Counted from the stretch's first letter, positions 25,089 through 42,611 are shown. The stretch is 64,000 nt of DNA from an uncultured Spirochaetaceae bacterium (GCA_964618015.1 CAZTZA010000004.1:1440-65439), one strand, 5' to 3'. Notes: generated by a model from the letters alone, not told the origin. Made by a program: numbers and translations.

Positions 25089-25119
25089 TAGAGGTTTTAT
25101 AGGAGTTCCATCCCATTGA

Positions 25120-26248: not shown

Positions 26249-26250
26249 CG

Positions 26251-27201
26251 ATGGTACACGCGCATCACAAGTCATTTGGATCTAGGCTTTTTGACATTGC
26301 CAATTCATTCTTTATTCTTACCATTGGTCTAACAGCGCTGTACCCATTTCTCCATATGGCAGCGATATCTACGAGCGATTTCTTTGCTGTCGGATTTGGT
26401 AAAGTAAGTATACTTCCTGTTGACTTCAGCCTAGATATCTATACTTACCTGTTTCAGTATAATCCATTTATCGGTCGTGCTTACTTTAATTCTATTCTAT
26501 ATACTGTTTTAAACACTTTCCTCACGGTCTTGCTGTGCGCTATGGCCGGCTTTGCCCTTGCGCAACGTAGATTAGCATTTCGCGGATTCTCGGGAACCCT
26601 ATTGTTGGTCTCAATGTTCTTTGGGGGTGGCCTGATCCCGACCTTTCTGTGGATTAGAGAGCTCGGTATGTTGAATTCAATATGGTCAATCGTGCTGCCG
26701 AACGCGGTGGCGGCCTACTATGTATTTCTATTTCGGGTTTATATCCACAGTAACGTTAGTGAGGAGATTCTGGAGTCCGTTTACATCGATGGTGGCGGGG
26801 ATTTTCGAGTTTTCTTCAAGATTGTAATGCCCCTTATCAAGCCGATGATAGCAACGATTGGGTTATTTGCGGCCGTAGCCATGTGGAATTCTTTTTTCAG
26901 TGCTCTAATATATTTAAGCGACCGTAACAAGTACCCGCTAACGCTTTTCTTGAGGGAAGTAGCCGTGATCGGTGGCTTTGGAGGATCCAGTGTAGGTGGC
27001 CCTGATGCGGGTGCGGAGCAGCTCACTGCCTATGAGATGGAGGGACAGTTCGACGCTTCTCTTGAAGTATGGCAGGGCGGTTATTTGAAGGCAACGCAGA
27101 TGGCATTCACGCTGATCACTGTAATTCCGGTTCTCTTTGTGTACCCATTTGCACAGCGATATTTTGTTAAAGGTATCACAATAGGGTCTGTAAAAGGATA
27201 A
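26251..27201 (+). CDS. Carbohydrate ABC transporter permease, LplC/YtcQ-like (MalG-type)
   Basis: 'ESVYIDGGGDFRVFFKIVMPLIKPMIATIG' EAA region. Starts 2 nt after the upstream permease. Confidence 0.8.
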   Translation: MVHAHHKSFGSRLFDIANSFFILTIGLTALYPFLHMAAISTSDFFAVGFGKVSILPVDFSLDIYTYLFQYNPFIGRAYFNSILYTVLNTFLTVLLCAMAGFALAQRRLAFRGFSGTLLLVSMFFGGGLIPTFLWIRELGMLNSIWSIVLPNAVAAYYVFLFRVYIHSNVSEEILESVYIDGGGDFRVFFKIVMPLIKPMIATIGLFAAVAMWNSFFSALIYLSDRNKYPLTLFLREVAVIGGFGGSSVGGPDAGAEQLTAYEMEGQFDASLEVWQGGYLKATQMAFTLITVIPVLFVYPFAQRYFVKGITIGSVKG

Positions 27202-27295
27202 CGTGCTTGAGTTGCATTTGCACTGTTTGCTAAACTGCGTTGTTACGATAAGCTGATTATTTGCAGTTTAATAGAAACGTAAGGAGGCATTCGTT

Positions 27296-29014
27296 ATGAA
27301 ACAACGGCTTTTCCGTTGGGTGGTACTCTTAGCAGGTCTGATGATCGTATCAGCCGGCGCGTGGTCTGAGGGAAGCTCTGACGCGGCGTCAGGTGAGCCA
27401 CCGGTGATTGTTTGGTCGGGGTTCTATGAGTTTAATAAAAACGCTACCCCAGAAACCTTGGTGATGCAGTGGATTGGAGAGGCTACTGGTTCCGTTCTCC
27501 AGCCGATGCATGTCGAACAAGGAGATAGGGCTACCTGGTGGAGCACCACCTTGGCATCCTTGGATTTCCCAGACGTGATGGAATACTGGGGTCAAATGGG
27601 CGATGATCCAAATATTTACGGCCCACAAGGTCTATTTGTTCCTCTATCTGAGGAGCGAGCAGAAGGGCGCATGCCCAACTTCGATCGGGTGATGACACAC
27701 TGGGATGCAGATAACTTTCAACGTTTTGCACCAGATGGGCACGTTTACATAGCCACTAAGATAGAAGGGCGGTTTATTCAGCCAAAGGTACCGGGATTCG
27801 TACTTCGCAGTGACCTAATGGATGCAGCAGGGTATGACACCAGTATCCCTAATCAGTTCACGACTATCGACCAGGTGCAGCATGCGCTTATCGCTATGAA
27901 GCCGCATTGGGACGCTATGTTTGGTGGACCGACTCCTGGTATGCATACCCGCGGTGACCGTGGTATTCGCAACAGTGGTCAGCTGCCTCGTGTTATCTAT
28001 AAGGACGAGTTCGCTGCTGATACCGCGATGCAGCTAGAGCCAGATAACGTCTGGCGGTTTGGTCCTCTTAGCCCTCGCTTCAAGCGTGCTACTGAGTTTC
28101 TCAGGGCGATGCACGAAGCTGGTATTCTGCACCCCGATTACCTGACGATGGCTGAAAAAGATCAGCGTCGACTTGACTGGGATGAAGGCAAGACCATGTA
28201 CTGGTGGGGTACTTGGGCTAGTAGTATCGAGCCTACTCAGGCTGAGAGATATTGTAGCCAAGGTACGGGCGGCGATGCATTCTGCGGTTTTTCTTCCTAT
28301 CCGGTTGTTGCTCCGACGGTAGATGGAGATGACCCCTGGATCCGGCAGCGCTCGATTGCAAGTTCGCGCGCGGTACTATCCGCTGACGGAGATAACGTTG
28401 CGAGCGCAGTAGCTATGCTCGACTTCCTTTACAGTGATGAGGGCGCTACGATTGCGTCATATGGTCCTGAGGGCTATGCCTGGGAATTCGATGATACTCC
28501 AGGAAACGACTGGAATCGCCGATGGACTTTGTGTTGGAGCGGTTCATATCCGGCACTAGAGTGCCAGGAGAACGATCCAGATCGCTCTAAGACTCGCGGT
28601 GAGATGATCGGCGAGGGCCCGCAGGTATTAATACAGGGCGGACCATCTGATACATGGGGGATGGACTGGACCAATTATTATTGGGATCCAGCTGACCTCG
28701 AAGGCAAGAAGGCTGATCGGGCCGTCACCCTACAGACTTGGAGCGATTGGCGCGCAGCCGGTAGTTGGGCTCTTGATCCCGTACCTGCCTTTGGCTTTGA
28801 GCCTGACGAGTTAGACGAGAAGGCTCAATTGGAGCAGCAGTTGCACACCTATGTTGATGAGCAGATCGCACGATTTATCAACGGTCAGAACAATATGCAC
28901 AGCGACTACAGAGCTTTTACGAGTCGTCTCAATGATCTAGGCGCAGCTCGGTTGGCAGAGATCTACAATACGGCGATGAATCGGTACCTGGACGCTGCGG
29001 GTATCTCACTTTAA
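27296..29014 (+). CDS. Extracellular solute-binding protein, family 1, large LplA-like (~570 aa), secreted
   Basis: Signal peptide 'VVLLAGLMIVSAGAWS', AGGAGG RBS, and the size and Trp-rich composition typical of LplA-type polysaccharide-fragment binding proteins. Confidence 0.7.
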   Translation: MKQRLFRWVVLLAGLMIVSAGAWSEGSSDAASGEPPVIVWSGFYEFNKNATPETLVMQWIGEATGSVLQPMHVEQGDRATWWSTTLASLDFPDVMEYWGQMGDDPNIYGPQGLFVPLSEERAEGRMPNFDRVMTHWDADNFQRFAPDGHVYIATKIEGRFIQPKVPGFVLRSDLMDAAGYDTSIPNQFTTIDQVQHALIAMKPHWDAMFGGPTPGMHTRGDRGIRNSGQLPRVIYKDEFAADTAMQLEPDNVWRFGPLSPRFKRATEFLRAMHEAGILHPDYLTMAEKDQRRLDWDEGKTMYWWGTWASSIEPTQAERYCSQGTGGDAFCGFSSYPVVAPTVDGDDPWIRQRSIASSRAVLSADGDNVASAVAMLDFLYSDEGATIASYGPEGYAWEFDDTPGNDWNRRWTLCWSGSYPALECQENDPDRSKTRGEMIGEGPQVLIQGGPSDTWGMDWTNYYWDPADLEGKKADRAVTLQTWSDWRAAGSWALDPVPAFGFEPDELDEKAQLEQQLHTYVDEQIARFINGQNNMHSDYRAFTSRLNDLGAARLAEIYNTAMNRYLDAAGISL

Positions 29015-29085: not shown

Positions 29086-30732
29086 ATGTTCTCTTTAGTC
29101 TGCAAATGGCGACGTCAGTTCGCTATTACTGTGGTCGCCCTTTGGGGGGTTCTCATTGGTTCTGCTTATGCTGATGGGGTACCAGCCCAGGTTACTGTCC
29201 AGATAAGTGAGCTTGCCCCTCGTACAGGTTGTGAGACGGAATTTAGGGTTCATGAGTTAGACCACCGGACGCTGCCTTCTGGATACCCGATTCAACTATT
29301 CGACAGTCATGGCACCGGGATAGCTGCTGGCGATCTCGATAGCGATGGTGACCTTGACTTGGTGCTTACTAATCTCGAGGGGCCTGCTTCGATACTATGG
29401 AACGAGGGTAAACTGAAATTTCGGCACGAGATGCTCCCGATCAGACATTCTCGAGCTGTCACCATTATTGATGCTGACGGGGATGGCATCCTCGATATAG
29501 CTTTGACGAAAAGTACAGGTCCAATAGAGATTTGGAGCAGGGACACTCTAGAGGAAAATTTTAAACGGCTTCTACAGCCGATGCCTAGAGAAATAGCTTT
29601 TACGATGGCTTGGGGTGACCTGGATAGAGACGGTGATCTTGACCTTGTTACGGCTACTTACGACGCTGAGATTGTGAAGAATTTTGGCTTCGGGCATGAG
29701 TCGGGAGGTGTCTTTTACCATGAAAGATCCGGGGATCAGTTGCTAAGTAATCGACTATCTGATCGTGCTGAAGCCTTAGCGCTTTTATTAGTTGATCTTA
29801 ATGATGATGGTCAGCTAGACATTCATGTCGGAAACGACTTCGCTTTAATTGATGAGGTCTGGTTACGTGTCGAAGACGGCTGGTCGAAGGCTATGCCATT
29901 TGCGGCGATTAGCCGTAACACGATGAGCCTAGATGCGGGTGACGTGGATGGGGACGGTAGAGAAGAGTTATTTGTAGCCGACATGAGCCCGTATAGTTTG
30001 GAGCTAGCCCGGCACTATCTCACGGTGATGATGAGGATGGCAGAGTTTCCGGGCGAGCAGGCAGACCAACAAGTGATTGCTAACGTTCTCCTCTTCCGTG
30101 GTGCGGATGGAATCTATCAGAACAGGGCATTGAGTGCAGGGGTAGGTTCGAGTGGATGGAGCTGGTCTTCGAAATTTGGTGATCTAGATCACGATGGGAC
30201 TCTAGATCTCTATATTGTTAATGGCATGGTCGGGAGCGAACAGTTTCCGTATTTACCAGGGGGAGAACTAATTGAGGAGAATCAAGCATTCCGAAATATT
30301 GGTGACGGTAAATTTGAACCGGTTCCACAATGGGGACTTGGTTCCAAGAGAAGTGGTCGTGGTATGGGCATGATTGATCTCGACCTGGACGGCGACCTGG
30401 ATATCGTTGTCAATAATTTAGCGTCCCGGGCACAGTTGTTTGAGAATAGAACCTGTGAGGGTACATCCGTTCAGGTTGACCTGCATCAGTCGGGGGGAAA
30501 CACGCGTGCAATTGGAGCAGTCGTTCTACTACACACTAGCGATGGTATCCAGCGACGAGATATCCGTTCGGCGAGTGGATATCTATTTGGAGACCCTCAA
30601 CGCGTTCACTTCGGTTCGTCTCACGACACACTTCTTCAGGCTCTGGAAGTGCGATGGCCTGATGGTGCTGTTTCAACAATTCAAGATCCCCCAACCGATG
30701 CACTTGTTTCGGTATATCGCCTTCGCGGATAG
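29086..30732 (+). CDS. CRTAC1-family protein: FG-GAP/VCBS β-propeller repeats plus a C-terminal ASPIC/UnbV domain, secreted
   Basis: Signal peptide; repeated 'DLDSDGDLDLV', 'DADGDGILDIAL', 'DLDRDGDLDLVTA' and 'DLDHDGTLDLYIVNG'. The C-terminus 'RRDIRSASGYLFGDPQRVHFGSS...VRWPDG' is UnbV_ASPIC-like. Confidence 0.7.
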   Translation: MFSLVCKWRRQFAITVVALWGVLIGSAYADGVPAQVTVQISELAPRTGCETEFRVHELDHRTLPSGYPIQLFDSHGTGIAAGDLDSDGDLDLVLTNLEGPASILWNEGKLKFRHEMLPIRHSRAVTIIDADGDGILDIALTKSTGPIEIWSRDTLEENFKRLLQPMPREIAFTMAWGDLDRDGDLDLVTATYDAEIVKNFGFGHESGGVFYHERSGDQLLSNRLSDRAEALALLLVDLNDDGQLDIHVGNDFALIDEVWLRVEDGWSKAMPFAAISRNTMSLDAGDVDGDGREELFVADMSPYSLELARHYLTVMMRMAEFPGEQADQQVIANVLLFRGADGIYQNRALSAGVGSSGWSWSSKFGDLDHDGTLDLYIVNGMVGSEQFPYLPGGELIEENQAFRNIGDGKFEPVPQWGLGSKRSGRGMGMIDLDLDGDLDIVVNNLASRAQLFENRTCEGTSVQVDLHQSGGNTRAIGAVVLLHTSDGIQRRDIRSASGYLFGDPQRVHFGSSHDTLLQALEVRWPDGAVSTIQDPPTDALVSVYRLRG

Positions 30733-30789
30733 AAAGTTGTTTTCTCTGCTATCAATAAGATAGACAGAGCTACGGATATTCTAAGAGAA

Positions 30790-32328
30790 ATGGCTAATCG
30801 AGAGGGTTCTCCAGCTTTTCGGGGATGGGCAATTCTGATTGCAGCTGGAGTATTGACAGTAGTGATCGGATTCGTTGTTTTCTTTCGTGGGGCTGACGGA
30901 GTTGAACCTAACGCTTGGCGCTCACTTCCTGATGTCCCAGAGGTTGTAGTAGTGAGCTGTGCCGGCTGTCATGATCCCCCCAACCCGGACGAACTTGCAC
31001 GGGCTGATTGGTTCCGTTCGCTGGCACGAATGAGATCGATCATGGCGGAGCAGGCAGGGGTTCAGCTTACAGACTACGATTATTTTCAGGTTTGGAAGTA
31101 TTTTCGTAATCATTCGCCCGACACCCTACCTATATTGGCTCAAGATCCAGTTGATTCACCGATCTTATTCGTTGCGGATTCTATTGCTCCCCCTGAGGGG
31201 GTTCCTCCACTAATTACTTCTGTCCAAGCGGTTGATTTTGATGCTGACGGTACTATCGAAATCTTGGTCAGTGACGCTCGGCGTAATACAGTTTCAATGA
31301 TGTCTATGGCAGATGATCGGTGGAAGGAAAAGGTGATTGGTCATATAGCAGCGCCAGCACGTGCGGAAGTGCACGACCTTGACGGAGACGGAGATCAGGA
31401 CATTGTAGTTGCATCTCTTGGGATCTTGCCGCCTACCGATGAGTTGGTCGGCAGTGTTGTTTTGTTAAGGTCGATCTCTGATGGATACCGGACGGAAGTG
31501 TTATTAAGTGACGTTGGTCGCGTAGCTGACGTTCGTGTCGGTGATATAGACGCTGATGGTGACATGGATCTGGCGGTTGCTATATTCGGTCATATCTCCA
31601 CTGGAGCGATCGTATGGATGGAGCAGGTTGACGGCGGTACCTTCCGATATCATGAACTTGAAGCTGTATCCGGGGCTAGCCATGTGCCAATCGTTGACCT
31701 CGATGGCGATGGTCTATTGGATATAGTCGCTCTAATATCACAGGCGAGTGAAAAGATCGACGTGTTCATGAATCATGGGTTTGGCGTCTTTAAGAAGCGA
31801 ACGTTATTTCGAGCGCCACCGCCCCTATTTGGATCCTCCGGCATTTCGCCGGTCGACCTTGATCAAGATGGGGATATAGACTTCATCTATAGCAACGGTG
31901 ACGCCTTCGATGTACCTGCGGCTCAGTCAACATCCATGTTACGTCCGTACCATGGGGTCCAATGGTTGGAGAACCGAGGTCGACGAGGTTTTGTAAGCCA
32001 TGATTTGCTCCGCTATTACGGTGCATTCAGTCCAATTCCAGCCGACCTTGATGAAGACGGAGATACTGATATCGTTGTCACTAGCTTGGTGAATGATTGG
32101 GCTGATGAGTCTCGTCGCAGCTTGATCTGGCTGGAGAACGACGGATCCCAGCAATTTACCGCGCATGGCATCGCGAGTTCTCCGACGCATCTGGTTTCAG
32201 CTGATGTTGCTGATATAGACGGAAACGGTCGCTTGGACATAGTAGCTGGTGGTTTGCATATGTTCCCGCCGTACAATCGGCTGGGACGTGTGACGGTTTG
32301 GGCTAATCAAGGTTCACTAGGCCAATAA
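30790..32328 (+). CDS. FG-GAP repeat protein with an N-terminal membrane anchor and a CxxCH motif
   Basis: TM helix 'WAILIAAGVLTVVIGFVVFF'; 'SCAGCHD' at nt 30958–30972; at least seven 'D.D.DG..D(I/L)' repeats. Confidence 0.65.
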   Translation: MANREGSPAFRGWAILIAAGVLTVVIGFVVFFRGADGVEPNAWRSLPDVPEVVVVSCAGCHDPPNPDELARADWFRSLARMRSIMAEQAGVQLTDYDYFQVWKYFRNHSPDTLPILAQDPVDSPILFVADSIAPPEGVPPLITSVQAVDFDADGTIEILVSDARRNTVSMMSMADDRWKEKVIGHIAAPARAEVHDLDGDGDQDIVVASLGILPPTDELVGSVVLLRSISDGYRTEVLLSDVGRVADVRVGDIDADGDMDLAVAIFGHISTGAIVWMEQVDGGTFRYHELEAVSGASHVPIVDLDGDGLLDIVALISQASEKIDVFMNHGFGVFKKRTLFRAPPPLFGSSGISPVDLDQDGDIDFIYSNGDAFDVPAAQSTSMLRPYHGVQWLENRGRRGFVSHDLLRYYGAFSPIPADLDEDGDTDIVVTSLVNDWADESRRSLIWLENDGSQQFTAHGIASSPTHLVSADVADIDGNGRLDIVAGGLHMFPPYNRLGRVTVWANQGSLGQ

Positions 32329-33240: not shown

Positions 33241-34227
33241 TCAACGGATCGTTGTTGGTCTGATCGGAGTTCCGAGCTCGGACGAACGAATGGCGGCTAG
33301 CGCGACCTGCAGTGATTCACGTCCTTCGGTAGCACCAATACTCGGTTGGCGGCCTGTAGTAATTCCTTGCAGGAAGTCGGTAATTTCTTCACCGATCGCG
33401 TGTCCAAAGCTAGACTTTTCGTAACGACCTTCGTTCACGCAAACTCCCAGTCCCTGATCGGATAGGTCTATTCGTGCAGTTCCTCCAGTGCCAATTATCT
33501 CTAATTTTATATCTGCACTAGGAATCTCTAATGGCAGTGACCAGCCACTTTCCACACAGGCTATCGTACCTTTTTCTAGTCGTGCCACCGTAAAGGCGAC
33601 ATCTTCGACATGGTAGCCCTTTGCGACGAGCATGCCACTTCGTGCTTCCGTGTGTACCCTCAGGAACTCTTGTCCCGTTAGCCAGCGAATAGTGTCGTAG
33701 TCGTGGATACCGAGAAAGAGCTGTGCAGAAACGCGGCCGCGCAGGTTTTCCTGTGATGCCCTACTGGTGATTCGGCGTGCATGTAGACTGATAGGATCAC
33801 CTAATTTACCGTCATCCAACAGTTGCTTGACGCGTACGTATCGTGGATCGAATCGGACAATATGAGCTACCATCAGTTGTCCAGGAGCGTTCTTTGCTGC
33901 CGTGACAATCCGGTCGGCATCCCGAATAGTAGTCGCAATCGGTTTCTCCAATAGCACGTGTTTCCCAGCATCAAGAGCGATCAAAGTTGGTTCGACATGG
34001 TTTGCATCAGGGGTGCAAACGCTTACCGCTTCCACTTCCGGACGGCTGAGTAAATCATCAATGCTATTGAACATAGCGGTGCCGACTTCCGATGCAATGG
34101 ACTGTGCTGAATCAGCGTTCGTGTCGAATACTCCGATCAGTCTTGCGCGAGGTTCTGCGGCGTAAGCACGGGCATGAATAGCGCCCATATAGCCAACACC
34201 GATGACACCGACTCCCACTTTAGACAT
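33241..34227 (-). CDS. Gfo/Idh/MocA family oxidoreductase
   Basis: 'VGVGVIGVGYMGAIHARAY' N-terminus and 'EKP' in 'VLLEKPIA'. Confidence 0.8.
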   Translation of the reverse strand: MSKVGVGVIGVGYMGAIHARAYAAEPRARLIGVFDTNADSAQSIASEVGTAMFNSIDDLLSRPEVEAVSVCTPDANHVEPTLIALDAGKHVLLEKPIATTIRDADRIVTAAKNAPGQLMVAHIVRFDPRYVRVKQLLDDGKLGDPISLHARRITSRASQENLRGRVSAQLFLGIHDYDTIRWLTGQEFLRVHTEARSGMLVAKGYHVEDVAFTVARLEKGTIACVESGWSLPLEIPSADIKLEIIGTGGTARIDLSDQGLGVCVNEGRYEKSSFGHAIGEEITDFLQGITTGRQPSIGATEGRESLQVALAAIRSSELGTPIRPTTIR

Positions 34228-34240
34228 CTATTTTTTACTC

Positions 34241-36097
34241 TTATCCGGGTGATACACCGTGCATATTCCAGTCACCAAGGGTCAAGAGCGGCTGGATTGC
34301 CCTATTTTCTTCTAATATTTCTGGTCTCACGTCACGCAGTCGGGCGCATTGTTCTTTAAGTTCACGCTCGGACAGAGGAGTACCCAACGAAGGTTTTCCG
34401 GCTGCGTGCCACCGTTCGATTTCGTCGCGATGGCCTAAGCGGCGTAGTGCGTTCCAGTAGCCTCGATGGTGGTCTCGCTGGTAACTATCCCAAAAGAATA
34501 GGCTTTCGCTACCAGCGTCATAGAGCATCTTAGCCATGCGACGAAACTCTTCTGGTGGCATAAACCGTGGCATAACGTTCATAGCCAACCGGCAATTGGT
34601 CCCAGATACGGCGTCTGTAAACGGTTGCACTTGCTCTGGTCCACTCCAGGTATCTGTTGGGACTGGCAGTGCGTACGGTGCATTACTATATGGCATCAGC
34701 GTATCTACCAAGCCTTCTCGGGCCCAAGTTTCTACGTCGATACCAAAAAACAGATTATCTTCAATCGAACCAAGAATGCAGGCTGAGATTTCAATTGGCT
34801 GTCCTCGCGTAATAGCGGCAGCGTTCATCGCTTCGCGAACGCGACGCATAAATATTGTGAGCATGCTGGCGCGGTAACGCAGCCATTCAGGGTCATCCGG
34901 AGGCACGTCGAATGGACTTTTGCCGGCTGATGTTTTGAACCCTTCTACCAATGGCTCCTCGTAATCCAGGTAAGGTGGTCGGCGATTGTATAATAGAGTA
35001 ATGCCGTCAACCGAGTAGGATAAGGCCACCTCCTGTAGTACGGATATACAGAAATCCTGAACTTCTGAGAACGCGTAAGAAAGCCGGGTTTGATCTCGAC
35101 CGTCTCGGTCTTTACAACGCCACTCTGGGTGGCGATCGTATAGTCCGTTTGCGAACGCGTAGTCGAGCAACGGCGGCGGATAGGTCCAGCCAGCCAGACG
35201 ATAAGCAGCGTGAAATCCAAGTCCCATACTGTGCGCATAGGCAACCGCCTCGCCAAACGGATCTATGCCGGCTGCAATCATACGGTTCCACCCTTCGTGC
35301 AAATAGCGGTCGTACTTGCGGCCGTAGTCTGGAGGAGTAATTTGGTCAAAGGTGCGGCCGATTTTACTAGGATAGTTGAGTAGATCTCCTGATCCGGCCT
35401 CCCAATGGATTCGCTCAAAATCACTATCGCGGTACGATTCGAGTTCTTCCCAGATCGACTCGATAGTGCCGGCCCTTAGTACGTTGCTGATATCCGTATG
35501 ACCCTGTAGTCGCTTGTTAGATTGATTCGCTCGGTCAGCCTCAAAGAGCAAGGCCTCTTGATCGGTGAGAGGTACGAGCTTGATGTAGGCAATCCGCGCC
35601 GGAGAATGGTCTCCAAGCTCCGGATGGTCGTTGGTACCTTCGCGCAAGCTGAATTGGGAGAACGTGATATGCTGCCCAGTTAGGTCTGCAACCTTCCAGA
35701 AAATCTCCTCAAGGCGTCGTCGTTTGAGGTGCCCGCCGGGATCCCATTCGAGGACCACAAACGAAGGATCGTCAGTCAATTTTGCTCTGAGCCAAACTAC
35801 GTCACCACTCGAATTGTGCCAGTCAATCTGACCAATGTCGCTCGGGTGGATACCGATCGAGATAGCGTGCAGACCATGTAAATCCAGTGGATAAGTCACA
35901 TCTGGGGCTCCGGTCTCCGGGTTGACCATAATCATAGTTCCGCAGAACTGGGGGGTCTCATATTCGAGAGTACGCCACGCTCCTCGTTGGGAACGTGAGG
36001 TTAGGGCTGTTGGTGGTTTGCAACGGTCCATATCTGAAACATAGATCGGGGACGAAGCAAACGCGCGATCGCCGAGCAGGTCAGGTTGAGGAAGCAT
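34241..36097 (-). CDS. Hypothetical protein, 618 aa; possibly a TIM-barrel glycoside-hydrolase-like domain (very tentative)
   Basis: Long ORF with consistent coding composition, 13 nt upstream of the oxidoreductase on the same strand. No motif identified with confidence. Confidence 0.45.
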   Translation of the reverse strand: MLPQPDLLGDRAFASSPIYVSDMDRCKPPTALTSRSQRGAWRTLEYETPQFCGTMIMVNPETGAPDVTYPLDLHGLHAISIGIHPSDIGQIDWHNSSGDVVWLRAKLTDDPSFVVLEWDPGGHLKRRRLEEIFWKVADLTGQHITFSQFSLREGTNDHPELGDHSPARIAYIKLVPLTDQEALLFEADRANQSNKRLQGHTDISNVLRAGTIESIWEELESYRDSDFERIHWEAGSGDLLNYPSKIGRTFDQITPPDYGRKYDRYLHEGWNRMIAAGIDPFGEAVAYAHSMGLGFHAAYRLAGWTYPPPLLDYAFANGLYDRHPEWRCKDRDGRDQTRLSYAFSEVQDFCISVLQEVALSYSVDGITLLYNRRPPYLDYEEPLVEGFKTSAGKSPFDVPPDDPEWLRYRASMLTIFMRRVREAMNAAAITRGQPIEISACILGSIEDNLFFGIDVETWAREGLVDTLMPYSNAPYALPVPTDTWSGPEQVQPFTDAVSGTNCRLAMNVMPRFMPPEEFRRMAKMLYDAGSESLFFWDSYQRDHHRGYWNALRRLGHRDEIERWHAAGKPSLGTPLSERELKEQCARLRDVRPEILEENRAIQPLLTLGDWNMHGVSPG

Positions 36098-36517
36098 AGC
36101 AATAGTCTATGTTCGATCACTGGGCGATAAAAGGGCAGGAATAACTCTTTCTTTACAAATTCTACACCTTGCTTATCCTGGCAATCCCACTTTCAGACTA
36201 CTATCGAGCAGAATCTGGTATGTAGTACCTGTCTATGAATTACTAGCATATGGCAAGTCGCTTTAGGTAGAGATTATCTCTACAAGTAAGTATCAAAAAT
36301 TAAAACGGCATAGTCCTATAAATTGAGCAGCACCAAGCCTACTCCTATCAAACATTTGGTACTGCAGGGACTTTTCTGAGGTTGGCTCTTATTGTTATAC
36401 ACCATCTGGTATCGAAGCGTTTATAGGATAAGAGTCAGGGAAAATGCCTACAGATTATTATAAATCGATCCAAGCTCTTTAAAAATCTTTCCTCGAGGGG
36501 AGAGAGAACGTCTAGTG

Positions 36518-37621
36518 TTACTCTCGATCATCACTTGCCAATCGTTCTATCAAAGGTTCGTTCCATTCAAGACCCAAGCCAGGCCGATCAGACATCTTTA
36601 TCATACCATCACGGAAGTCAGGCGGAGAGACCAGGTCATCCATCAACAATGCTGGACCCATCTCTACAGTCAAACCATTTATGACCGATGCCACTGCTAC
36701 TGCGCCTAGATGAGCATCACCATGCGGAGCCATCGGTAGGTGGTGGGCGCCGGCATATGCAGCAATCTTTAGCCATTCGGTGAATCCTCCGCAAACGTTT
36801 GGATCCGCCTGGATGAAATGCGCTCCTCGCATGTCGATTAGATCGCGGAATCCCCAGCGGGTAAACTCGTTCTCACCGGTCGCGATTGGGATTGGCTGTG
36901 CTTTCGACAGTGCGGCACTGCCTCGGATGTCGTCAGCCGGAACAGGTTCCTCAAACCAGAAGGGCTCGTACCGTTCTACCATCCGAGCGAAGCTCAGTGC
37001 GGTGGCAAAGTCCCAGCTGTTGTTAGCATCGAGCATGAGGTCGATCTCTGTCCCAACCGCCTCACGCACAGAACGGACTCGTGCGACATCTTGGCGGAGA
37101 GTTACTCCCGACCAGCCGACTTTCATTTTCACTGCTCTAAAACCCAGTTCTACAGCATGTAATGCCTCTGTAGCTAATTCGGGTAATCCTTTACCTTCCT
37201 GATAGTAACCACCAGCTGCGTATGCAGGAAGATCATGTTGCGCGCCCCCCAAGAGCTTCCATGTTGGCTGTCCGGCTACAATACCGCGTAGGTCCCAGAG
37301 GGCGTTATCAATGGCGCTCATGGCTCTTATATGATCGCCCTTGGCTACCGGCTTACGCCAATTTCCCTGGTACATTCGCTGCCAGATCTTTTCCGGAGCT
37401 AAAGGGTCCTGGCCAACAACAACTGAAGATAATTGCTGGATCAGTGCTGGATTAGTGCCGGGTGCTGGCGCCATCCCAACTGCTCCTTCATCTGTGGCAA
37501 CCGTAAGCCGAGCGAATCCTTTTCGTCTCGGCTTAGGCGGGTAACCGATAATCCCGTTCCAGATCCCTGGCTCCTGCTCGCCATAGGTAAAGGAAGTGAG
37601 AATGATGTCGGTGATCCGCAT
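36518..37621 (-). CDS. Enolase-superfamily enzyme, mandelate racemase/muconate-lactonizing (MR/MLE) subgroup, sugar-acid dehydratase-like
   Basis: N-terminal capping domain 'MRITDIILTSFTYGE', and barrel-domain metal ligands in 'IDLMLDANNSW', 'FWFEEP' and 'IATGENEF'. Confidence 0.8.
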   Translation of the reverse strand: MRITDIILTSFTYGEQEPGIWNGIIGYPPKPRRKGFARLTVATDEGAVGMAPAPGTNPALIQQLSSVVVGQDPLAPEKIWQRMYQGNWRKPVAKGDHIRAMSAIDNALWDLRGIVAGQPTWKLLGGAQHDLPAYAAGGYYQEGKGLPELATEALHAVELGFRAVKMKVGWSGVTLRQDVARVRSVREAVGTEIDLMLDANNSWDFATALSFARMVERYEPFWFEEPVPADDIRGSAALSKAQPIPIATGENEFTRWGFRDLIDMRGAHFIQADPNVCGGFTEWLKIAAYAGAHHLPMAPHGDAHLGAVAVASVINGLTVEMGPALLMDDLVSPPDFRDGMIKMSDRPGLGLEWNEPLIERLASDDRE

Positions 37622-37706
37622 ATGGACACTCTATCGTTTACCGCTGTCAGACTGAAACCCTCACACCGATGGTTTTCACCAATGAGTTGAGGTATCGAGG
37701 TCTATT

Positions 37707-40046
37707 TCAACGGACTAATCGCTTAAATCCTTCCTCCGGCAGCGGGCCGCGCATTCGATCCACGATGTCACCTTTGCGAATAGCATCGGCTAATTCGGCC
37801 ATTACTTGCTCCATCGCCACTGCGTGCTTATTTAATACCTCTTCGGTATGTGCCATCGAGCAGTAGATTGAAGGGGGTGCCAAGAAGCCGCGCTCAAGCA
37901 TGAGATGGGTATATAGGTTGCTGAGTTCACGTCCTTGCTCGTGATCGAAGCTGGCGCTGGCAAAACACGGATAGTTGTCAGAAACCACCATTGGTATTCC
38001 TGCCGCTTCGGAGTGCTTGCGCCAGTCCTCTTTGACGCGATTTCCGACCTTAGCCACGAAAGCGGGTACATCTAGTTGTTGCGTCATCTTCTTAACTGCT
38101 GCTACTGCTGCCGCGGGTCCCACTCCCTCAGTCCAATAGCTTGAGGAGATAAAGGAGCGTTCAGCTCCCTCCATTGCAGAGGCAGTTCCAATAACTGCGC
38201 CAATTGGGTGGCCATTACCGAGGCTTTTGCCAAATGCTGCTATATCAGGATTGACGCCGAAAAGTGCATGAGATCCAGCTGTTGCCAATCGGAAACCTAT
38301 GGAGGTCTCATCAAAGATGAGGAGTGCTCCAACGCGATGTGCTTCGTCTCTAATGTGCTCCAGATATCCTGGCTCCGGGTCCTTTCCTCGGCAAGGTTCC
38401 ATCACTACCGCCGCAAGCCTATCGCCGTATTCGGCAATTATGCGGTCAAATCCAGATGCATCTCCCTGCTCAAAGACATGGGCAGTGCCTCGCAATTCAC
38501 GCGGTACGCCCAGTGGTTCCAGACCGGGCATCAGATTCCCAGCGAGTGCTTCTTCTTCACCTAGATTGGCAGCTAGATACCAATCATGCCAGCCATGATA
38601 GCCACTGACAGCTACTACCGAGCGGTCCGTGGTAGCACGAGCGATGCGGACTGCTACAGTCATGGTTTCTCCCCCAGTACGCGCCAAACGAACACGCTCC
38701 GCCCAAGGGTGAAGTCCACACATCAATTCAGCTAGCTCAATCTCCTCGCGTGGGTTTAGTTGGCAACAACTCCCCAGGCTGACTCGTCTTACTACTGCAC
38801 GCGTTACGTCTGGGTCTCGGTAGCCCAAAATGGTGGCGCCGACAGCGTGTGAACTGCAATCAAAAAAGTGTCTGCCTGCCTCGTCCCACACTTCGCAGCC
38901 TCGAGCCTCACGAAAATAGGGAGGCCAAACATCGGGAGCGAAACGGTCAGGATTCTTACTAAGTAAATGATTTCCGCGTGGGATGATAGTGAGCGCATGC
39001 TCATAACTCTTTTGACCAAGCTGGGGATCTACTTCACGCAGGCCGAGTAGTCGCTCGGCGTTATCACAGAAGATATCCTGTAGGTCGAGGTCGTTCAGTC
39101 CAAATCGGTCGCCTGCTTGAAAAATAGCCCGTAGTTCTTCGAGGCCAACTTGGATAGGTTGACCGAAGAAAGCCTGCTCATTCCAATCCAACTGATCAGT
39201 GGTAATCCAGGCGAAGCCACTGCCCAAGGTCATGTGTCGGCCGCGTTGGTGCGAGACTGGAAAGTCTGATCCGTACATCAGTTGCCGTGGCCCAAACTCC
39301 TCCAGGATCGCAATCATCGGCTCTGCCTCGCAGATTGCGGAAGTGTCAAACCAGATATTCTGCAACCCACGTAAGGAGCCGATTGCCTTGGTAGTATTAG
39401 GTCCGTGAAACCCTCGTGCCGCGTGCGCCAGAATTAGCTGCGCATTTGGGAAGCGTTCACATTTCTCACGGATCTGACGTTGGTTCTCCGGATCGTCTAG
39501 TGCAGGGTCTCGGACGATGTGTAACATGATGAACCAGCCTCGGGCATCTGCAACCTTCCAGGTCCATTCCGGCAGGAATTCGTCAATGTATGACTGTTGC
39601 GTGTCAGAGCGGTCACTGTAGCAATGGTAGCATTTAAAACCGCCTATTCCCTCGCCTTCGAGATGTTCTTCAACGTCAGAAAGTTCCGTGTGCGCATCGA
39701 CCAAATAGGCTCTAATATTCCTTGGTTGGCCTGAAACCTCTGCTTCCACAAAATCGTTTTTTGGGCCGATTGGCAAATCAGCTGAAGGGAAAGGCAGTAC
39801 TAGTGAGCCGACCATGCGGTCCTGGCCACCAAGCTGTCTGCCTACCAGTTTACGCCAGTCATCTAGTCTTACTTGCTCCGGTCCCCAATTAATCATTGTT
39901 CCGACCTGCGGGAAATGTGCTCTATCGTATAAATGCATGTGAGCGTCAAAAATGCGTTCTGGAACGCGTTTGGATAACTCTTCCGTTGCCTCCTGATCAG
40001 CGTTGGTTGTTTTCCATCCGGTCGCGAACTGTTCGTTCATCTGCAT
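37707..40046 (-). CDS. Bifunctional fusion: N-terminal amidohydrolase_2 (metal-dependent TIM-barrel hydrolase) plus C-terminal class-III (ω-type) PLP aminotransferase
   Basis: N-terminal half has 'FDAHMHLYD' (HxH metal motif), 'LILAHAARG' and 'MYGSDFP'. C-terminal half has 'GNHLLSKNP...EVWDEAGRHFFD' and the PLP-lysine context 'LIFDETSIGFRL...NPDIAAFGKSLGNGHPIGAV'. Single 779-aa frame. Confidence 0.7.
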   Translation of the reverse strand: MQMNEQFATGWKTTNADQEATEELSKRVPERIFDAHMHLYDRAHFPQVGTMINWGPEQVRLDDWRKLVGRQLGGQDRMVGSLVLPFPSADLPIGPKNDFVEAEVSGQPRNIRAYLVDAHTELSDVEEHLEGEGIGGFKCYHCYSDRSDTQQSYIDEFLPEWTWKVADARGWFIMLHIVRDPALDDPENQRQIREKCERFPNAQLILAHAARGFHGPNTTKAIGSLRGLQNIWFDTSAICEAEPMIAILEEFGPRQLMYGSDFPVSHQRGRHMTLGSGFAWITTDQLDWNEQAFFGQPIQVGLEELRAIFQAGDRFGLNDLDLQDIFCDNAERLLGLREVDPQLGQKSYEHALTIIPRGNHLLSKNPDRFAPDVWPPYFREARGCEVWDEAGRHFFDCSSHAVGATILGYRDPDVTRAVVRRVSLGSCCQLNPREEIELAELMCGLHPWAERVRLARTGGETMTVAVRIARATTDRSVVAVSGYHGWHDWYLAANLGEEEALAGNLMPGLEPLGVPRELRGTAHVFEQGDASGFDRIIAEYGDRLAAVVMEPCRGKDPEPGYLEHIRDEAHRVGALLIFDETSIGFRLATAGSHALFGVNPDIAAFGKSLGNGHPIGAVIGTASAMEGAERSFISSSYWTEGVGPAAAVAAVKKMTQQLDVPAFVAKVGNRVKEDWRKHSEAAGIPMVVSDNYPCFASASFDHEQGRELSNLYTHLMLERGFLAPPSIYCSMAHTEEVLNKHAVAMEQVMAELADAIRKGDIVDRMRGPLPEEGFKRLVR

Positions 40047-40124: not shown

Positions 40125-40838
40125 ATGAAATTCATGGCAGCTTTTCTGACTGTTGCGCTCGTCGGTACGGTTGCTTGGTCCAAGACCGGTAGCTTTGACT
40201 ACGACGATGGGTCGTCTTACGTAGGCGAGTTCGAATCCGGTAAGGTCCACGGCCTAGGTACTTATACATGGGCTGACGGGACAGTTTATTCTGGGGCGTT
40301 TGACACTGGCCGTCCACATGGGGAAGGCATTCTTACTTGGTCCACCGGTGCATCCTACGTTGGGCCATTTGCAGCTGGTACGATGAAAGGAACCGGCACA
40401 ATTATGTGGGCGAGCGGTGCAGAGTACGAGGGAAATTTTACGGCTGGTCATATCAACGGATATGGCACTTTGAAGTGGCCTGACGGCACTGTATATATAG
40501 GACAATTTGTTTCTGAACGGATTGAAGGTGCTGGTACGCTGACGTGGCCTAACGGTTCCCGTTATCAGGGAAACTTTGTCGGTGGAAAAATTCAAGGTCC
40601 TGGCATCATGTCCTGGCCCAACGGTGATCGTTACCAGGGTGAGTTCTCATCTGGAGCTGCGCATGGTGAAGGCACCTATACCTGGTCTAGCGGCTCCCGC
40701 TACGAGGGTACTTACAGTTTGGGTATGGCCTCAGGCGGAATTTTTTATGTTACCGATAGTGACGGAAGAGATTGGCACTTTATAGCTTTACAAGACTCGA
40801 ATGGGGACTGGAAGGTTGAGCATCCGGAAAGCCAATAG
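40125..40838 (+). CDS. MORN-repeat protein, secreted
   Basis: Signal peptide 'FMAAFLTVALVGTVAWS' followed by about eight tandem 23-aa 'YxGxFxxGxxHGxGTxTWxxG' MORN units. Confidence 0.7.
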   Translation: MKFMAAFLTVALVGTVAWSKTGSFDYDDGSSYVGEFESGKVHGLGTYTWADGTVYSGAFDTGRPHGEGILTWSTGASYVGPFAAGTMKGTGTIMWASGAEYEGNFTAGHINGYGTLKWPDGTVYIGQFVSERIEGAGTLTWPNGSRYQGNFVGGKIQGPGIMSWPNGDRYQGEFSSGAAHGEGTYTWSSGSRYEGTYSLGMASGGIFYVTDSDGRDWHFIALQDSNGDWKVEHPESQ

Positions 40839-41043
40839 CTGTGCTCTTTGCAGAGGTTTTTCTTCCGCTAAATGAGTTCGGGGGTCGCGGACAATAACGA
40901 GAGATGGGATCGATCTATGATTGAGGCCGGCTTTCGTCCAGCGTTGGTCAGTCGGGAGAGCGCATTTGGTGTGCTTGATCGCGGTAGCTGCCCTTTCTCG
41001 TGCTAACGTTGTGATCAAGCTTTTGTGGGAGGAGGCTGTTCTA

Positions 41044-42078
41044 TCAGTTTGACGTGCTGGGGCAAGGCGGGTCATGGGGGAGGCGTCTGTACTCTGACAG
41101 CGCCTGATCCATTACTAAGTTCGTCCGTGCAGCGCTCTCACCGGTACTAGGGCATGAGCCTTCATTGCGGAGTTGATTAACGATTGATTGGATCATTGGC
41201 TGCTGCACGTGCTCAGGATGCGGTATCTTCATGAACTTAGTGCCAGAGCTAGTGGAGATCTCGAAAGGGGCTTCACCGAAAGTCGAATAACGGATCAGGC
41301 CATTGCTGCCCGCAATTTCCACTTGATCGACGCTTTCTTGAGAGGTGAACGAAAAACGGGCAGCACCAATAACGCCATCACGAAAGCGCATAGCGAAAGT
41401 TACGGCATCCTCTGCCTCATAAGCGTTGAGCTGGTTAACGGCGAATCCTCGCACCTCAGCGATTGGTCCGAGCAGGTAGTCCAGCAGGTCAAGCACGTGC
41501 GATCCCATGTCAGCGAATAAGCCGCCGCCAGCGATCTCGGGATTATAACGCCATGGCAAATCTCCGGTACTGAGTTTTGGATCAGGTGGGTTTGCGTACG
41601 TCACGGTTACCGTTCGAGGCGTTCCGATAGCGCCTTCAAACAAGGCCTTACGAATGGCAATAAAACGAGGTAGTGTTCGCCGATAGTAGGCGACGAACAG
41701 AGGCACGCTCGCTAATGCGGCGGCGTCATTCATCGATACACAGTCAGCATAGCTGCAAGCCATTGGTTTCTCCACGTAGACTGGTTTTCCTGCAGCAAGT
41801 GCTTGCAATGTATGGTCATGATGCGATGAAGGAGGTGTGGCCACATACACCGCGTCGACTTCAGCGTCAGAGATCAAAGCATCAGCGTCGTCATAAGCTC
41901 TAGGTACTCCATGTCGATGTGCATAGTCGTGGGCGGCAGCACTATTACGTCGCATTACTGCCACCAGTTGAGATCCTTGTGCCTTGCGGAATCCTGGACC
42001 GCTCTTGACCTCGGTAACGTTACCACAACCGATAATCCCCCAACGGATTAGAGATGAATTACTTGTTAACATCTTCAT
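41044..42078 (-). CDS. Gfo/Idh/MocA family oxidoreductase
   Basis: 'IRWGIIGCGNVTEVK' and 'EKP' in 'VYVEKPMA'. Confidence 0.8.
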   Translation of the reverse strand: MKMLTSNSSLIRWGIIGCGNVTEVKSGPGFRKAQGSQLVAVMRRNSAAAHDYAHRHGVPRAYDDADALISDAEVDAVYVATPPSSHHDHTLQALAAGKPVYVEKPMACSYADCVSMNDAAALASVPLFVAYYRRTLPRFIAIRKALFEGAIGTPRTVTVTYANPPDPKLSTGDLPWRYNPEIAGGGLFADMGSHVLDLLDYLLGPIAEVRGFAVNQLNAYEAEDAVTFAMRFRDGVIGAARFSFTSQESVDQVEIAGSNGLIRYSTFGEAPFEISTSSGTKFMKIPHPEHVQQPMIQSIVNQLRNEGSCPSTGESAARTNLVMDQALSEYRRLPHDPPCPSTSN

Positions 42079-42611
42079 GGACCAAGTAATGCACGCAAAG
42101 CAGGGGATTGAATACGTGGCTCGGCTGCTCGGCGTAGTTCGCTAGCTGCAACAGTCCCGGCTTTCGAATAGATGTCTGCTAGTAACGCCATGTCGAGAAT
42201 GTCTATGTCCTTCACCAGTTGGCCCTCCGGGGTTCGCCGCTCGGTATAGTCTAACCACGCATCCATCAATGTCCCGTCTTGATCGATTTTTCCCAGGATT
42301 TTTCGTGCCGCCTGTTCCTCTTTTTGATGTTTTTCGTGGAGAGACACACCGTCAGCAGGGGTCAAGTCTCCGGTGAGCGCTTCGGCTATATCATGGATAA
42401 TAGCGATGAGCACCGCTCGTGCCGGGTCGACACCGATTACTGAGGCGGCAATTGCTGCCAGGGCAGCGACACCGAACGAATGCGCTGCTACTGACTCCGG
42501 ACAACGGACACCGCGTTCAACCCAACCTTTGCGTTTTAATTGCTTAAGTTCAGCAATATATGCGAAGAACTCGGTGAGATCTTCGGACGTTAAATTTCCC
42601 GCATTTTTCAC
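42075..42611 (-). CDS. HD-domain phosphohydrolase, YfbR-like 5'-deoxynucleotidase
   Basis: 'HSFGVAALA...IIHDIAEALTGDLTP' (H...HD...D metal motifs). 4-nt overlap with the downstream gene. Confidence 0.75.
   Translation of the reverse strand: MKNAGNLTSEDLTEFFAYIAELKQLKRKGWVERGVRCPESVAAHSFGVAALAAIAASVIGVDPARAVLIAIIHDIAEALTGDLTPADGVSLHEKHQKEEQAARKILGKIDQDGTLMDAWLDYTERRTPEGQLVKDIDILDMALLADIYSKAGTVAASELRRAAEPRIQSPALRALLGP

What the first reader, a model, noticed from the sequence alone, without database searches (positions are those of the whole stretch)
33241..40046. Minus-strand catabolic cluster: hydrolase::aminotransferase fusion – MR/MLE enolase – 618-aa unknown – Gfo/Idh/MocA
Four co-oriented genes, broken only by the 420-nt AT-rich gap. 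They combine a dehydrogenase, an enolase-superfamily dehydratase/epimerase, a lactonase-type hydrolase, an aminotransferase and a large unknown protein. This looks like a pathway for an amino-sugar or aminated sugar acid, but it does not match a canonical pathway I can name.
Basis: inference. Interest (0 to 1): 0.55.

Follow-up and report, generated by a model that had tools for sequence, protein, structure and literature searches.

The report
Lineage-specific sugar-processing gene cluster, substrate unknown
Four neighbouring genes for cytoplasmic sugar-modifying enzymes, including a hydrolase fused to an aminotransferase and a distant relative of an unusual sialidase family, sit together only in one narrow bacterial lineage, so they are a plausible but unproven pathway rather than a conserved system.

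Summary

The four-gene arrangement is not co-conserved. It occurs only in relatives at about 70-83% identity. There it is repeatedly split by ankyrin, Fic, defence, intron or IS insertions. The gap is a variable slot that holds a kinase and a phosphorylase gene in some relatives. Elsewhere, none of about 78 fusion loci carries the 618-aa protein or an orthologue of the enolase or the dehydrogenase. None of 80 enolase-orthologue loci carries the fusion or the 618-aa protein.

Best reading, at moderate confidence: glycoside cleavage, then dehydrogenase, lactonase and dehydratase steps plus transamination of an unidentified amino or deoxy sugar, in two transcription units. Interest is moderate.

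The parts
37707..40046 (-). 779-aa fusion protein. The N-terminal Amidohydro_2 domain spans about residues 1-340 (window 39027-40046). The C-terminal class-III, PLP-dependent aminotransferase-like domain spans about residues 345-779 (window 37707-39012). A GGAGG motif lies 6 nt upstream of the ATG.
36518..37621 (-). 367-aa enolase-superfamily protein of the mandelate-racemase subgroup. It looks like an acid-sugar dehydratase, but its specificity is unassigned.
   Evidence: MR_MLE_C 208 bits and MR_MLE_N 37.4 bits. K165-x-K167, D198, E224, E250, D273, H300 and E320 are invariant in 28 orthologues. The best PDB hits are function-unknown structural-genomics entries 3ssz, 3stp and 3sqs (E 3e-49 to 2e-44). 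All NCBIfam equivalogs are far below cut-off.
36098..36517 (.). 420-nt AT-rich intergenic gap. This is the slot where relatives carry an APH-family kinase gene and/or a PNP_UDP_1 phosphorylase gene. It probably holds the promoter of the downstream gene pair.
   Evidence: GC 39.5%. No Rfam match at E<=1. No remnant of the APH or PNP genes by tblastn or blastn. One promoter-like match on the minus strand at 36483-36454, within chance expectation, and no terminator-like site in the gap.
34241..36097 (-). 618-aa cytoplasmic protein. It has an N-terminal beta-sandwich (about residues 1-195) followed by a (β/α)8 barrel related to GH156 exosialidase and GHL10/Cwp19. It is a probable glycoside hydrolase of unknown specificity.
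33241..34227 (-). 328-aa Gfo/Idh/MocA NAD(P)-dependent sugar dehydrogenase. It starts 13 nt after the stop of the 618-aa gene.
   Evidence: Pfam PF01408 109.6 bits plus C-terminal domains. The nearest NCBIfam models are UDP-GlcNAc 3-dehydrogenase (192.8 bits, cut-off 450) and iolG (170.2 bits, cut-off 355), so it is below both. PDB neighbours are inositol dehydrogenases, RgNanOx/YjhC-type enzymes and others.
40125..42611 (.). Conserved flank in the same clade: a MORN-repeat gene (40125-40838, + strand), a second Gfo/Idh/MocA gene (41044-42078, - strand) and an HD_3/YfbR-like phosphohydrolase gene (42075-42611, - strand, overlapping the Gfo gene by 4 nt). This flank is syntenic with the fusion in the close relatives (L031 keeps only HD and MORN). 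It is not shown to belong to the same pathway.
   Evidence: Pfam hits. Synteny in L001, L002, L004, L005 and L086, and partly in L031 (HD and MORN only).

Best explanation
The region encodes four intact cytoplasmic sugar-processing enzymes, probably in two transcription units: fusion + enolase, and GH156-like protein + Gfo dehydrogenase.

The most likely chemistry, all of it inferred, runs as follows:
1. The GH156/GHL10-like barrel cleaves an imported glycoside.
2. The Gfo/Idh/MocA enzyme oxidises the released sugar to a lactone.
3. The lactonase-like N-domain of the fusion opens the lactone to a sugar acid.
4. The mandelate-racemase-type enolase dehydrates the acid to a 2-keto-3-deoxy acid.
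5. The class-III PLP domain, fused to the lactonase, removes or moves an amino group on the same skeleton.

This is the logic of the known non-phosphorylating fucose, rhamnose and pentose routes, with an added transamination. That would fit an amino- or deoxy-sugar substrate. The substrate is unknown.

Shown: the gene order, the domain families, the folds and the intact catalytic residues. Also shown: the grouping is specific to one clade. The cluster lacks an aldolase, a transporter and a regulator, so it is at best part of a pathway.
For: Domains and intact catalytic sets:
- The enolase has the full mandelate-racemase-subgroup acid/base and Mg set.

Pathway logic:
- The dehydrogenase, lactonase, dehydratase order is an established design for non-phosphorylating sugar catabolism (PMC11199699).

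Linkage within the clade:
- In the closest relative, L001, the genes form one tight co-directional block: fusion, enolase, APH kinase, PNP_UDP_1, GHL10-like, Gfo. Spacers are 8-68 nt.
- Gene order is kept in L004, L086 and L169.

Independent hints that the parts act on sugars and sugar acids:
- Fusion homologues elsewhere sit beside carbohydrate and sugar-acid genes: BNR_2 propellers, HpcH aldolase, SDR, aldo-keto reductase, SSF symporter and Gfo-like dehydrogenase.
- A split version exists, with a separate Amidohydro_2 gene and a 60%-identical stand-alone aminotransferase in one co-directional cluster (L073).
- Homologues of the 618-aa protein lie near DHDPS-family genes and peptide/nickel-type (SBP_bac_5/Opp) ABC importers.
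Against: Co-conservation fails outside one clade:
- Among about 78 other fusion loci, only two weak enolase paralogues (28-30% identity) and no GHL10-like partner were found.
- None of 80 enolase-orthologue loci has a fusion or GHL10-like gene.

Contiguity is broken even inside the clade. Between fusion and enolase, relatives carry:
- an ankyrin/LRR gene (L004);
- Schlafen, HTH, Fic and group II intron genes (L005);
- a defence island with no enolase within 10 kb (L031);
- an unknown gene and Fic, plus an IS between the enolase and the phosphorylase remnant (L169).

Other weaknesses:
- No aldolase, transporter or regulator lies in the cluster.
- The N-domain resembles lactonases by fold only. 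Sequence-profile E-values are 1e-3 to 1e-4, and the same fold houses decarboxylases and hydratases.
- The GH156-like protein lacks the His at the GH156 general-acid position (T305) and has Asp where GH156 has the carboxylate-binding Asn.
- There are no expression data.
Confidence: 0.4

Rival explanations
1. This is a chance, lineage-specific juxtaposition. Fusion + enolase and GH156-like + Gfo, or even all four genes, serve unrelated pathways. They are neighbours only because this stretch of the ancestral chromosome collects accessory metabolic genes and insertions.
For: - None of the four families keeps any of the others as a partner outside the clade.
- The fusion-enolase junction and the enolase-GHL10 junction are both indel hot spots in relatives.
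- The usual partners of the fusion or its N-domain (PhyH, BNR_2, SSF, HpcH, weak Gfo, MTTB, URO-D) are absent from the window.
Against: - L001 has all the genes in one tight co-directional block with 8-68 nt spacers.
- Gene order is preserved through several independent insertions.
- The enzyme classes fit one known pathway design.
Confidence: 0.3
2. The region is an eroding remnant of a six-gene operon (fusion, enolase, APH-family kinase, PNP_UDP_1 phosphorylase/nucleosidase, GH156-like, Gfo). In that operon a nucleoside-like or glycosyl compound is cleaved and the released sugar is phosphorylated. The window's lineage has lost the kinase and phosphorylase steps, so the pathway here is incomplete or rewired.
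For: There is a graded series at the gap position:
- APH + PNP in L001;
- PNP only in L004;
- a 157-aa PNP fragment next to an IS in L169;
- nothing in L086, which has a 536-nt gap, or in the window, which has a 420-nt gap.

An APH-like gene also sits among tandem GHL10-like paralogues in an unrelated contig, L084. An HD_3 (YfbR-like nucleotidase family) gene is syntenic upstream.
Against: - No remnant of either gene is detectable in the window's gap.
- The direction of change, loss or gain, was not resolved with a phylogeny.
- All four remaining genes keep every family-invariant residue, so they are not decaying.
Confidence: 0.15
3. The cluster acts on a sialic-acid-like (nonulosonic or 2-keto-3-deoxy) sugar. 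The GH156-like protein would be an intracellular sialidase-type hydrolase. The Gfo enzyme would be a NanOx/YjhC-type oxidoreductase. The fusion would de-acylate and then transaminate the 5-amino group.
For: - GH156 exosialidase is the closest solved relative of the 618-aa protein.
- Two of the three GH156 carboxylate-binding positions are invariant Arg (R300, R372).
- RgNanOx and YjhC are among the PDB hits of the Gfo protein.
- One fusion homologue lies among NanE, GlcNAc 2-epimerase, a BadF-type kinase, BNR_2 and a DHDPS/NanA-like gene (L003).
- BNR_2 is the commonest immediate neighbour of fusions (9 of 98).
- DHDPS-family genes flank homologues of the 618-aa protein.
Against: - The GH156 general-acid His is Thr in the window protein, and the carboxylate-binding Asn is Asp.
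- The base Asp could not be aligned.
- The N-domain's structural neighbours are lactonases and decarboxylases, not N-deacetylases.
- No lyase, epimerase or kinase of sialic-acid catabolism is in the cluster.
- Inositol dehydrogenases score better than NanOx for the Gfo protein.
Confidence: 0.1

Closest known systems
Non-phosphorylating (oxidative) L-fucose / L-rhamnose / pentose pathways: sugar 1-dehydrogenase, cog3618 Amidohydro_2 lactonase, enolase-superfamily or other dehydratase, then aldolase or KDS-dehydrogenase plus hydrolase
   Same: The cluster has a sugar dehydrogenase family member, an Amidohydro_2 domain whose nearest fold is the L-fucono-1,5-lactonase 4dlf, and a mandelate-racemase-subgroup dehydratase-like enolase, all in one co-oriented cluster.
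   Different: - The dehydrogenase is Gfo/Idh/MocA rather than SDR.
- The lactonase-like domain is fused to a class-III aminotransferase.
- There is no aldolase, KDS dehydrogenase or hydrolase in the cluster.
- None of the proteins reaches the curated cut-off of a characterised family.
- An extra GH156-like protein is present.
CAZy family GH156 inverting exosialidases (EnvSia156, PDB 6rzd)
   Different: - Identity is only 19%.
- There is an extra N-terminal beta-sandwich of about 195 aa.
- There is no signal peptide.
- The H134 equivalent is Thr in the window protein, though it is His in 17 of 37 family members.
- The N346 equivalent is Asp in 36 of 37 members.
- The R246 equivalent is not conserved.
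- The D14 equivalent is unresolved.
Pfam GHL10 (PF02638) proteins such as Clostridioides difficile Cwp19
   Different: Cwp19 is a surface protein that acts on the cell wall. The window protein is cytoplasmic, is about 220 aa longer than the solved Cwp19 construct, and sits with sugar-acid enzymes.
Glutamate-1-semialdehyde 2,1-aminomutase (HemL) and sugar/amine class-III transaminases (GenB, NeoN, PctV, FumI)
   Same: The C-domain has the class-III PLP fold. The best PDB hits are HemL 5i92 (E 1.5e-38), PctV 4zm3/4zm4, GenB 7lld and FumI 6hbs. The Lys (K607) and Asp (D579) are invariant.
   Different: The score is 201.6 bits against a HemL-like cut-off of 486. The domain is fused to an amidohydrolase, and it lies in no tetrapyrrole or aminoglycoside context.
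Mandelate racemase subgroup acid-sugar dehydratases (L-fuconate, L-talarate/galactarate, D-arabinonate and L-rhamnonate dehydratases)
   Same: The positions K165-x-K167, D198, E224, E250, D273, H300 and E320 parallel mandelate racemase K164/K166, D195, E221, E247, D270, H297 and E317. The mandelate racemase numbering is from my own knowledge.
   Different: The best equivalog scores are 193 bits against 650 (AraD_Arch), 171 against 500 (TalGalacDh), 162 against 311 (galactonate) and 136 against 393 (rhamnonate). The nearest structures have no assigned function.

Membership tests
GH156 sialidase | (β/α)8 catalytic barrel homologous to EnvSia156 | tested here: met
GH156 sialidase | General-acid His134 | tested here: not met
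   The aligned position is T305 in the window protein. Across the family it is His in 17 of 37 and Thr in 13 of 37, and the whole window subclade has Thr. The residue role is from PMC6811678.
GH156 sialidase | General-base Asp14 | tested here: inconclusive
   The N-terminal barrel region did not align to 6rzd. Invariant D202 at the end of predicted strand β1 is a positional candidate only.
GH156 sialidase | Carboxylate triad Arg129 / Arg202 / Asn346 | tested here: inconclusive
   R300 and R372 are invariant at the two Arg positions. The Asn position is Asp (D537) in 36 of 37 sequences. The triad is defined.
Pfam GHL10 (PF02638) | Score above the gathering threshold | tested here: met
   42.7 bits against 27.9, over residues 276-469.
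Enolase superfamily, mandelate racemase subgroup | KxK on strand 2, three carboxylate Mg ligands, an Asp-His dyad on strands 6 and 7, and a Glu on strand 8 | tested here: met
   K165, K167, D198, E224, E250, D273, H300 and E320 are all invariant in 28 orthologues.
Enolase superfamily, MLE subgroup (N-succinyl-amino-acid racemase / OSBS / dipeptide epimerase) | A second catalytic Lys at the end of strand 6, and a score above the family cut-offs | tested here: not met
   The strand-6 position is D273, not Lys. MenC, dipeptide-epimerase and DgcA models score 22-51 bits against cut-offs of 130-500.
Characterised acid-sugar dehydratase equivalogs (AraD_Arch, TalGalacDh, galactonate, rhamnonate, ManD) | NCBIfam curated cut-off | tested here: not met
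   193/650, 171/500, 162/311, 136/393 and 136/550 bits.
cog3618 / LigI-type lactonases of the amidohydrolase superfamily | Amidohydro_2 barrel with the strand-1 HxH, later His residues and the strand-8 Asp | tested here: met
cog3618 / LigI-type lactonases of the amidohydrolase superfamily | Lactone-hydrolysing activity or close sequence kinship to a characterised lactonase | tested here: inconclusive
Class-III aminotransferase / HemL | Aminotran_3 fold with the Schiff-base Lys, and for HemL the equivalog cut-off | tested here: inconclusive
   The fold is met: PF00202 scores 104.3 bits against 30.5, with K607 and D579 invariant. The HemL equivalogs are not met: 201.6/486, 177/398 and 168/527 bits.
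   The arrangement occurs only in L001, L004, L086 and L169, and partly in L005. It is absent in about 78 other fusion loci and 80 enolase-orthologue loci.
Non-phosphorylating sugar oxidation pathway | A downstream 2-keto-3-deoxy-acid aldolase, or a dehydrogenase plus hydrolase, encoded with the dehydrogenase, lactonase and dehydratase | tested here: not met
   None lies in 33241-40046. The nearest HpcH/HpaI gene is at 21214-22023 on the other strand, and it is not orthologous to the HpcH genes that accompany fusions elsewhere.

The most novel reading that the evidence does not exclude
The Amidohydro_2::class-III aminotransferase fusion is present in at least 598 species across many phyla and has no characterised member. 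It could be a true bifunctional enzyme of an undescribed oxidative amino-sugar or amino-sugar-acid route. In this lineage it would work with a new, cytoplasmic, His-less subfamily of GH156-like glycosidases. That would define two new enzyme activities and possibly a new glycoside hydrolase family or subfamily.
Probability: 0.2. Interest if true: 0.65.

Novelty: new variant of a known kind. Interest (0 to 1): 0.4.

Why it matters
If the pathway reading is right, the cluster would assign a first physiological context to three uncharacterised protein families:
- a lactonase-like::transaminase fusion found in hundreds of environmental genomes (Planctomycetota, Verrucomicrobiota, Chloroflexota, Bacteroidota, Paenibacillus and others);
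- an orphan mandelate-racemase-subgroup enolase family;
- an intracellular relative of the rare GH156 sialidase family, with an altered catalytic position.

It would extend the non-phosphorylating sugar-oxidation design to amino sugars. If the reading is wrong, the result still has value. Gene adjacency in a single genome is a weak guide here, because the arrangement does not survive comparison beyond one clade.

Tried and rejected
- Remnants of the APH and PNP genes in the 420-nt gap: none found by tblastn or blastn.
- A structured RNA or riboswitch in the gap or the cluster: no Rfam match at E<=1.
- Promoter and terminator scans: the counts are no higher than in shuffles, so they are uninformative.
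- N-succinyl-amino-acid racemase or OSBS identity for the enolase: rejected.
- HemL identity for the PLP domain: rejected on cut-offs.
- Aligning GH156 Asp14 with a sub-profile of the barrel N-terminus: no hit to 6rzd.
- Literature searches for the domain pair, for PF02638, and for an amidohydrolase-aminotransferase fusion in sialic-acid catabolism: nothing relevant. The cog3618 lactonase paper (PMC3542637) is not held.
- Looking up the window's own record by exact protein: the look-up of encoding contigs found no record for the 618-aa protein. The listing of cluster members shows only that the window proteins come from an unnamed NCBI contig of 65,475 nt.
- The unknown family of about 520 aa that often neighbours fusions, which has a homologue in the window at 10516-12009: no Pfam family, and only an insignificant GH130 hit.
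- My first greedy ORF caller mis-called genes in the 66-69% GC relatives, where long antisense ORFs occur. Targeted tblastn was used instead.
Full report
**1. Observation**

- 37707-40046 (779 aa)
- 36518-37621 (367 aa)
- 34241-36097 (618 aa)
- 33241-34227 (328 aa)

The spacers are 85 nt, 420 nt and 13 nt. The 420-nt spacer (36098-36517) has 39.5% GC against 51.1% for the window.

Pfam confirms Amidohydro_2 plus Aminotran_3 in one ORF. It also confirms MR_MLE_N and MR_MLE_C, and the Gfo/Idh/MocA domains. It gives the "unknown" 618-aa protein a GHL10 hit above threshold. No NCBIfam model reaches its curated cut-off for any of the four proteins. None of the four shows an N-terminal signal peptide in the three translations read.

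**2. The fusion**

The fusion is real and widespread. All 120 listed hits carry both Pfam domains, and nearly all are full-length proteins of about 770 aa at 50-57% identity. They come from Planctomycetota, Verrucomicrobiota, Chloroflexota, Kiritimatiellota, Omnitrophota and others, and carry only generic names. These include cultured Paenibacillus, Cyclobacterium, Pleomorphovibrio, Maioricimonas and Dyadobacter.

In a 28-sequence alignment the following are invariant:
- H36, H38, K138, Y140, H141, H176, H208 and D261 in the N-domain;
- D579 and K607 in the PLP domain. I take these to be the pyridine-N Asp and the Schiff-base Lys.

The PLP domain is nearest to HemL, PctV, GenB, FumI and NeoN-type enzymes. 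It scores less than half of the HemL cut-offs.

The N-domain family also exists on its own. Of 311 representative clusters at E<=1e-30, most are proteins of about 325-345 aa. A split arrangement occurs in L073: a separate Amidohydro_2 gene, then Ldh_2, an SSF symporter, and a 60%-identical stand-alone aminotransferase.

**3. The enolase**

K165-x-K167, D198, E224, E250, D273, H300 and E320 are invariant in 28 orthologues. This is the mandelate-racemase-subgroup set (my knowledge of mandelate racemase numbering), not the Lys-Lys set of the MLE/NSAR subgroup.

The nearest structures are function-unknown structural-genomics entries: 3ssz, 3stp and 3sqs. The best equivalogs (arabinonate, talarate/galactarate, galactonate and rhamnonate dehydratases) score far below cut-off. 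So the enolase is an orphan dehydratase-type family, widespread at 52-63% identity.

**4. The 618-aa protein**

Its family has members of about 580-635 aa, with 231 hits. The family profile matches the GH156 exosialidase EnvSia156 at E 3.9e-15 and Cwp19 at E 1e-5.

I mapped the GH156 residues defined in PMC6811678 and the 2022 bioRxiv survey, using the alignments:

| GH156 residue | Role | Window protein | Family (37 sequences) |
|---|---|---|---|
| R129 | carboxylate binding | R300 | invariant |
| R202 | carboxylate binding | R372 | invariant |
| N346 | carboxylate binding | D537 | Asp in 36 of 37 |
| H134 | general acid | T305 | His in 17, Thr in 13 |
| D14 | general base | not aligned | D202 is a positional candidate only |

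All close relatives of the window protein have Thr at the H134 position, while the more distant half of the family has His. D14 could not be aligned. The protein is therefore a distant GH156/GHL10 relative with an altered catalytic position, not a demonstrable sialidase.

**5. Synteny**

The arrangement exists only in relatives at 69-83% identity, and their records are titled "Spirochaetia bacterium" MAGs.

| Locus | Layout |
|---|---|
| L001 | One tight block: fusion, enolase, APH kinase, PNP_UDP_1, GHL10-like, Gfo (8-68 nt spacers) |
| L004 | A 1132-aa ankyrin/LRR gene between fusion and enolase; keeps PNP only |
| L005 | About 9.3 kb between fusion and enolase: Schlafen, HTH, Fic and a group II intron reverse transcriptase |
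| L031 | A STAND / AbiEii-like / methylase island after the fusion; no enolase within 10 kb |
| L086 | An ankyrin gene, and a 536-nt gap where the window has 420 nt |
| L169 | An unknown gene and Fic, then the enolase, an IS, a 157-aa PNP fragment, the GHL10-like gene, a small ORF and Gfo |

So the gene order is kept but contiguity is not. The window's gap is a variable slot, and it holds no detectable remnant of the APH or PNP genes.

Outside the clade the picture is different:
- Neighbours of the fusion are BNR_2 propellers, SDR, HpcH aldolase, aldo-keto reductase, SSF symporter, PhyH, a weak Gfo-like protein, URO-D and MTTB. MR_MLE appears once and GHL10 never among 98 immediate neighbours.
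- None of 80 loci with enolase orthologues contains a fusion or a GHL10-like gene, and their neighbours are heterogeneous.
- Homologues of the 618-aa protein sit with DHDPS-family genes, SBP_bac_5/Opp-type (peptide/nickel-type) ABC transporter genes, SDRs and their own paralogues.

**6. Interpretation**

The enzyme classes fit the non-phosphorylating sugar route of dehydrogenase, lactonase and dehydratase (PMC11199699), with an added glycosidase and transaminase. That is my best explanation, at confidence 0.4.

Counting against it are the failure of co-conservation, the absence of an aldolase, transporter or regulator, and the fold-only support for lactonase activity.

The rivals are:
- mere juxtaposition (0.3);
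- an eroding six-gene operon that once included a kinase and a phosphorylase (0.15);
- a sialic-acid-like substrate (0.1).

**7. Verdict**

On novelty, this is a new variant of known kinds, built from uncharacterised subfamilies of known superfamilies in a clade-specific arrangement. Interest is 0.4.

Noticed in passing
L170 1-10910 and L171 1-4758; also L003, L025, L034, L042, L076, L078, L080: A stand-alone homologue of the fusion's N-domain (339 aa, 45% identity) sits in a recurring module. One arm is SDR, HpcH aldolase, weak Gfo, SSF symporter and GntR. The divergent arm is PhyH, Amidohydro_2, MTTB, BNR_2 and URO-D. The same markers surround fusion genes in other phyla: at least 3 of 8 markers in 8 of 42 well-flanked loci. 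MTTB plus URO-D-type proteins suggest a methylated-amine step (my knowledge). This module, not the window's cluster, looks like the family's usual home.
   Followed up: partly
window 34241-36097, residue T305; alignment A2: At the position that aligns with the GH156 general-acid His134, the family splits. It is His in 17 of 37 sequences (the more distant half) and Thr in 13 of 37 (the window protein and all its closer relatives). This is a possible mechanistic switch within one family.
   Followed up: partly
L004 12279-15677; L005 12371-21528; L031 12022-21544; L169 959-8774: In sister genomes, the junctions between the fusion and the enolase and between the enolase and the GHL10-like gene are insertion hot spots. 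The insertions include an ankyrin/LRR gene, Schlafen/AlbA_2, Fic/DUF4172, a group II intron reverse transcriptase, a STAND NTPase, an AbiEii-like ATPase, a DNA methylase and a DDE transposase.
   Followed up: partly
whole window against L001, L004, L005, L031: The window has 51% GC. Its closest relatives, at about 80% protein identity with the same gene order, have 66-69% GC. That is a large compositional shift between related genomes.
   Followed up: no
L084 10001-16816: Three paralogues of the 618-aa family lie in tandem within 7 kb, with an APH-like kinase gene between them. Six family members list the same 45,435-nt contig. This is a local expansion of the family and a second, independent link to an APH-type kinase.
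   Followed up: no
L073 65-7103: This is a split form of the fusion: a separate Amidohydro_2 gene (285 aa), then Ldh_2, an SSF symporter, a stand-alone aminotransferase (449 aa, 60% identical to the fusion's C-domain) and an unknown 533-aa gene, all co-directional.
   Followed up: partly
window 19370-23062 (+): A tightly spaced co-directional group: a third Gfo/Idh/MocA gene, a TauE/SafE exporter-family gene, an HpcH/HpaI aldolase and a Meth_synt_2 protein. It is followed by peptidase S51, an unknown gene, two ABC permease genes and a 572-aa protein with no Pfam family (23354-29014). It may be another sugar-acid or sulfonate unit. The aldolase is not orthologous to those that accompany fusions elsewhere.
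   Followed up: partly
window 10516-12009 (+): A 497-aa protein with no Pfam family. It is 32% identical to a family of about 520 aa that neighbours the fusion gene in 13 other genomes. Here it lies 26 kb from the fusion. The only PDB hit is an insignificant GH130 match.
   Followed up: partly
window 29086-32328 (+) and 40125-40838 (+): Two adjacent FG-GAP/ASPIC-UnbV repeat proteins (548 and 512 aa) lie downstream of the cluster, and a MORN-repeat protein lies divergent from the fusion gene. Both features are syntenic in the close relatives.
   Followed up: no
window 41044-42611 (-): An HD_3/YfbR-like phosphohydrolase gene overlaps a second Gfo/Idh/MocA gene by 4 nt. The HD-Gfo2 pair is kept upstream of the fusion in most close relatives (L031 keeps only the HD gene).
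   Followed up: no
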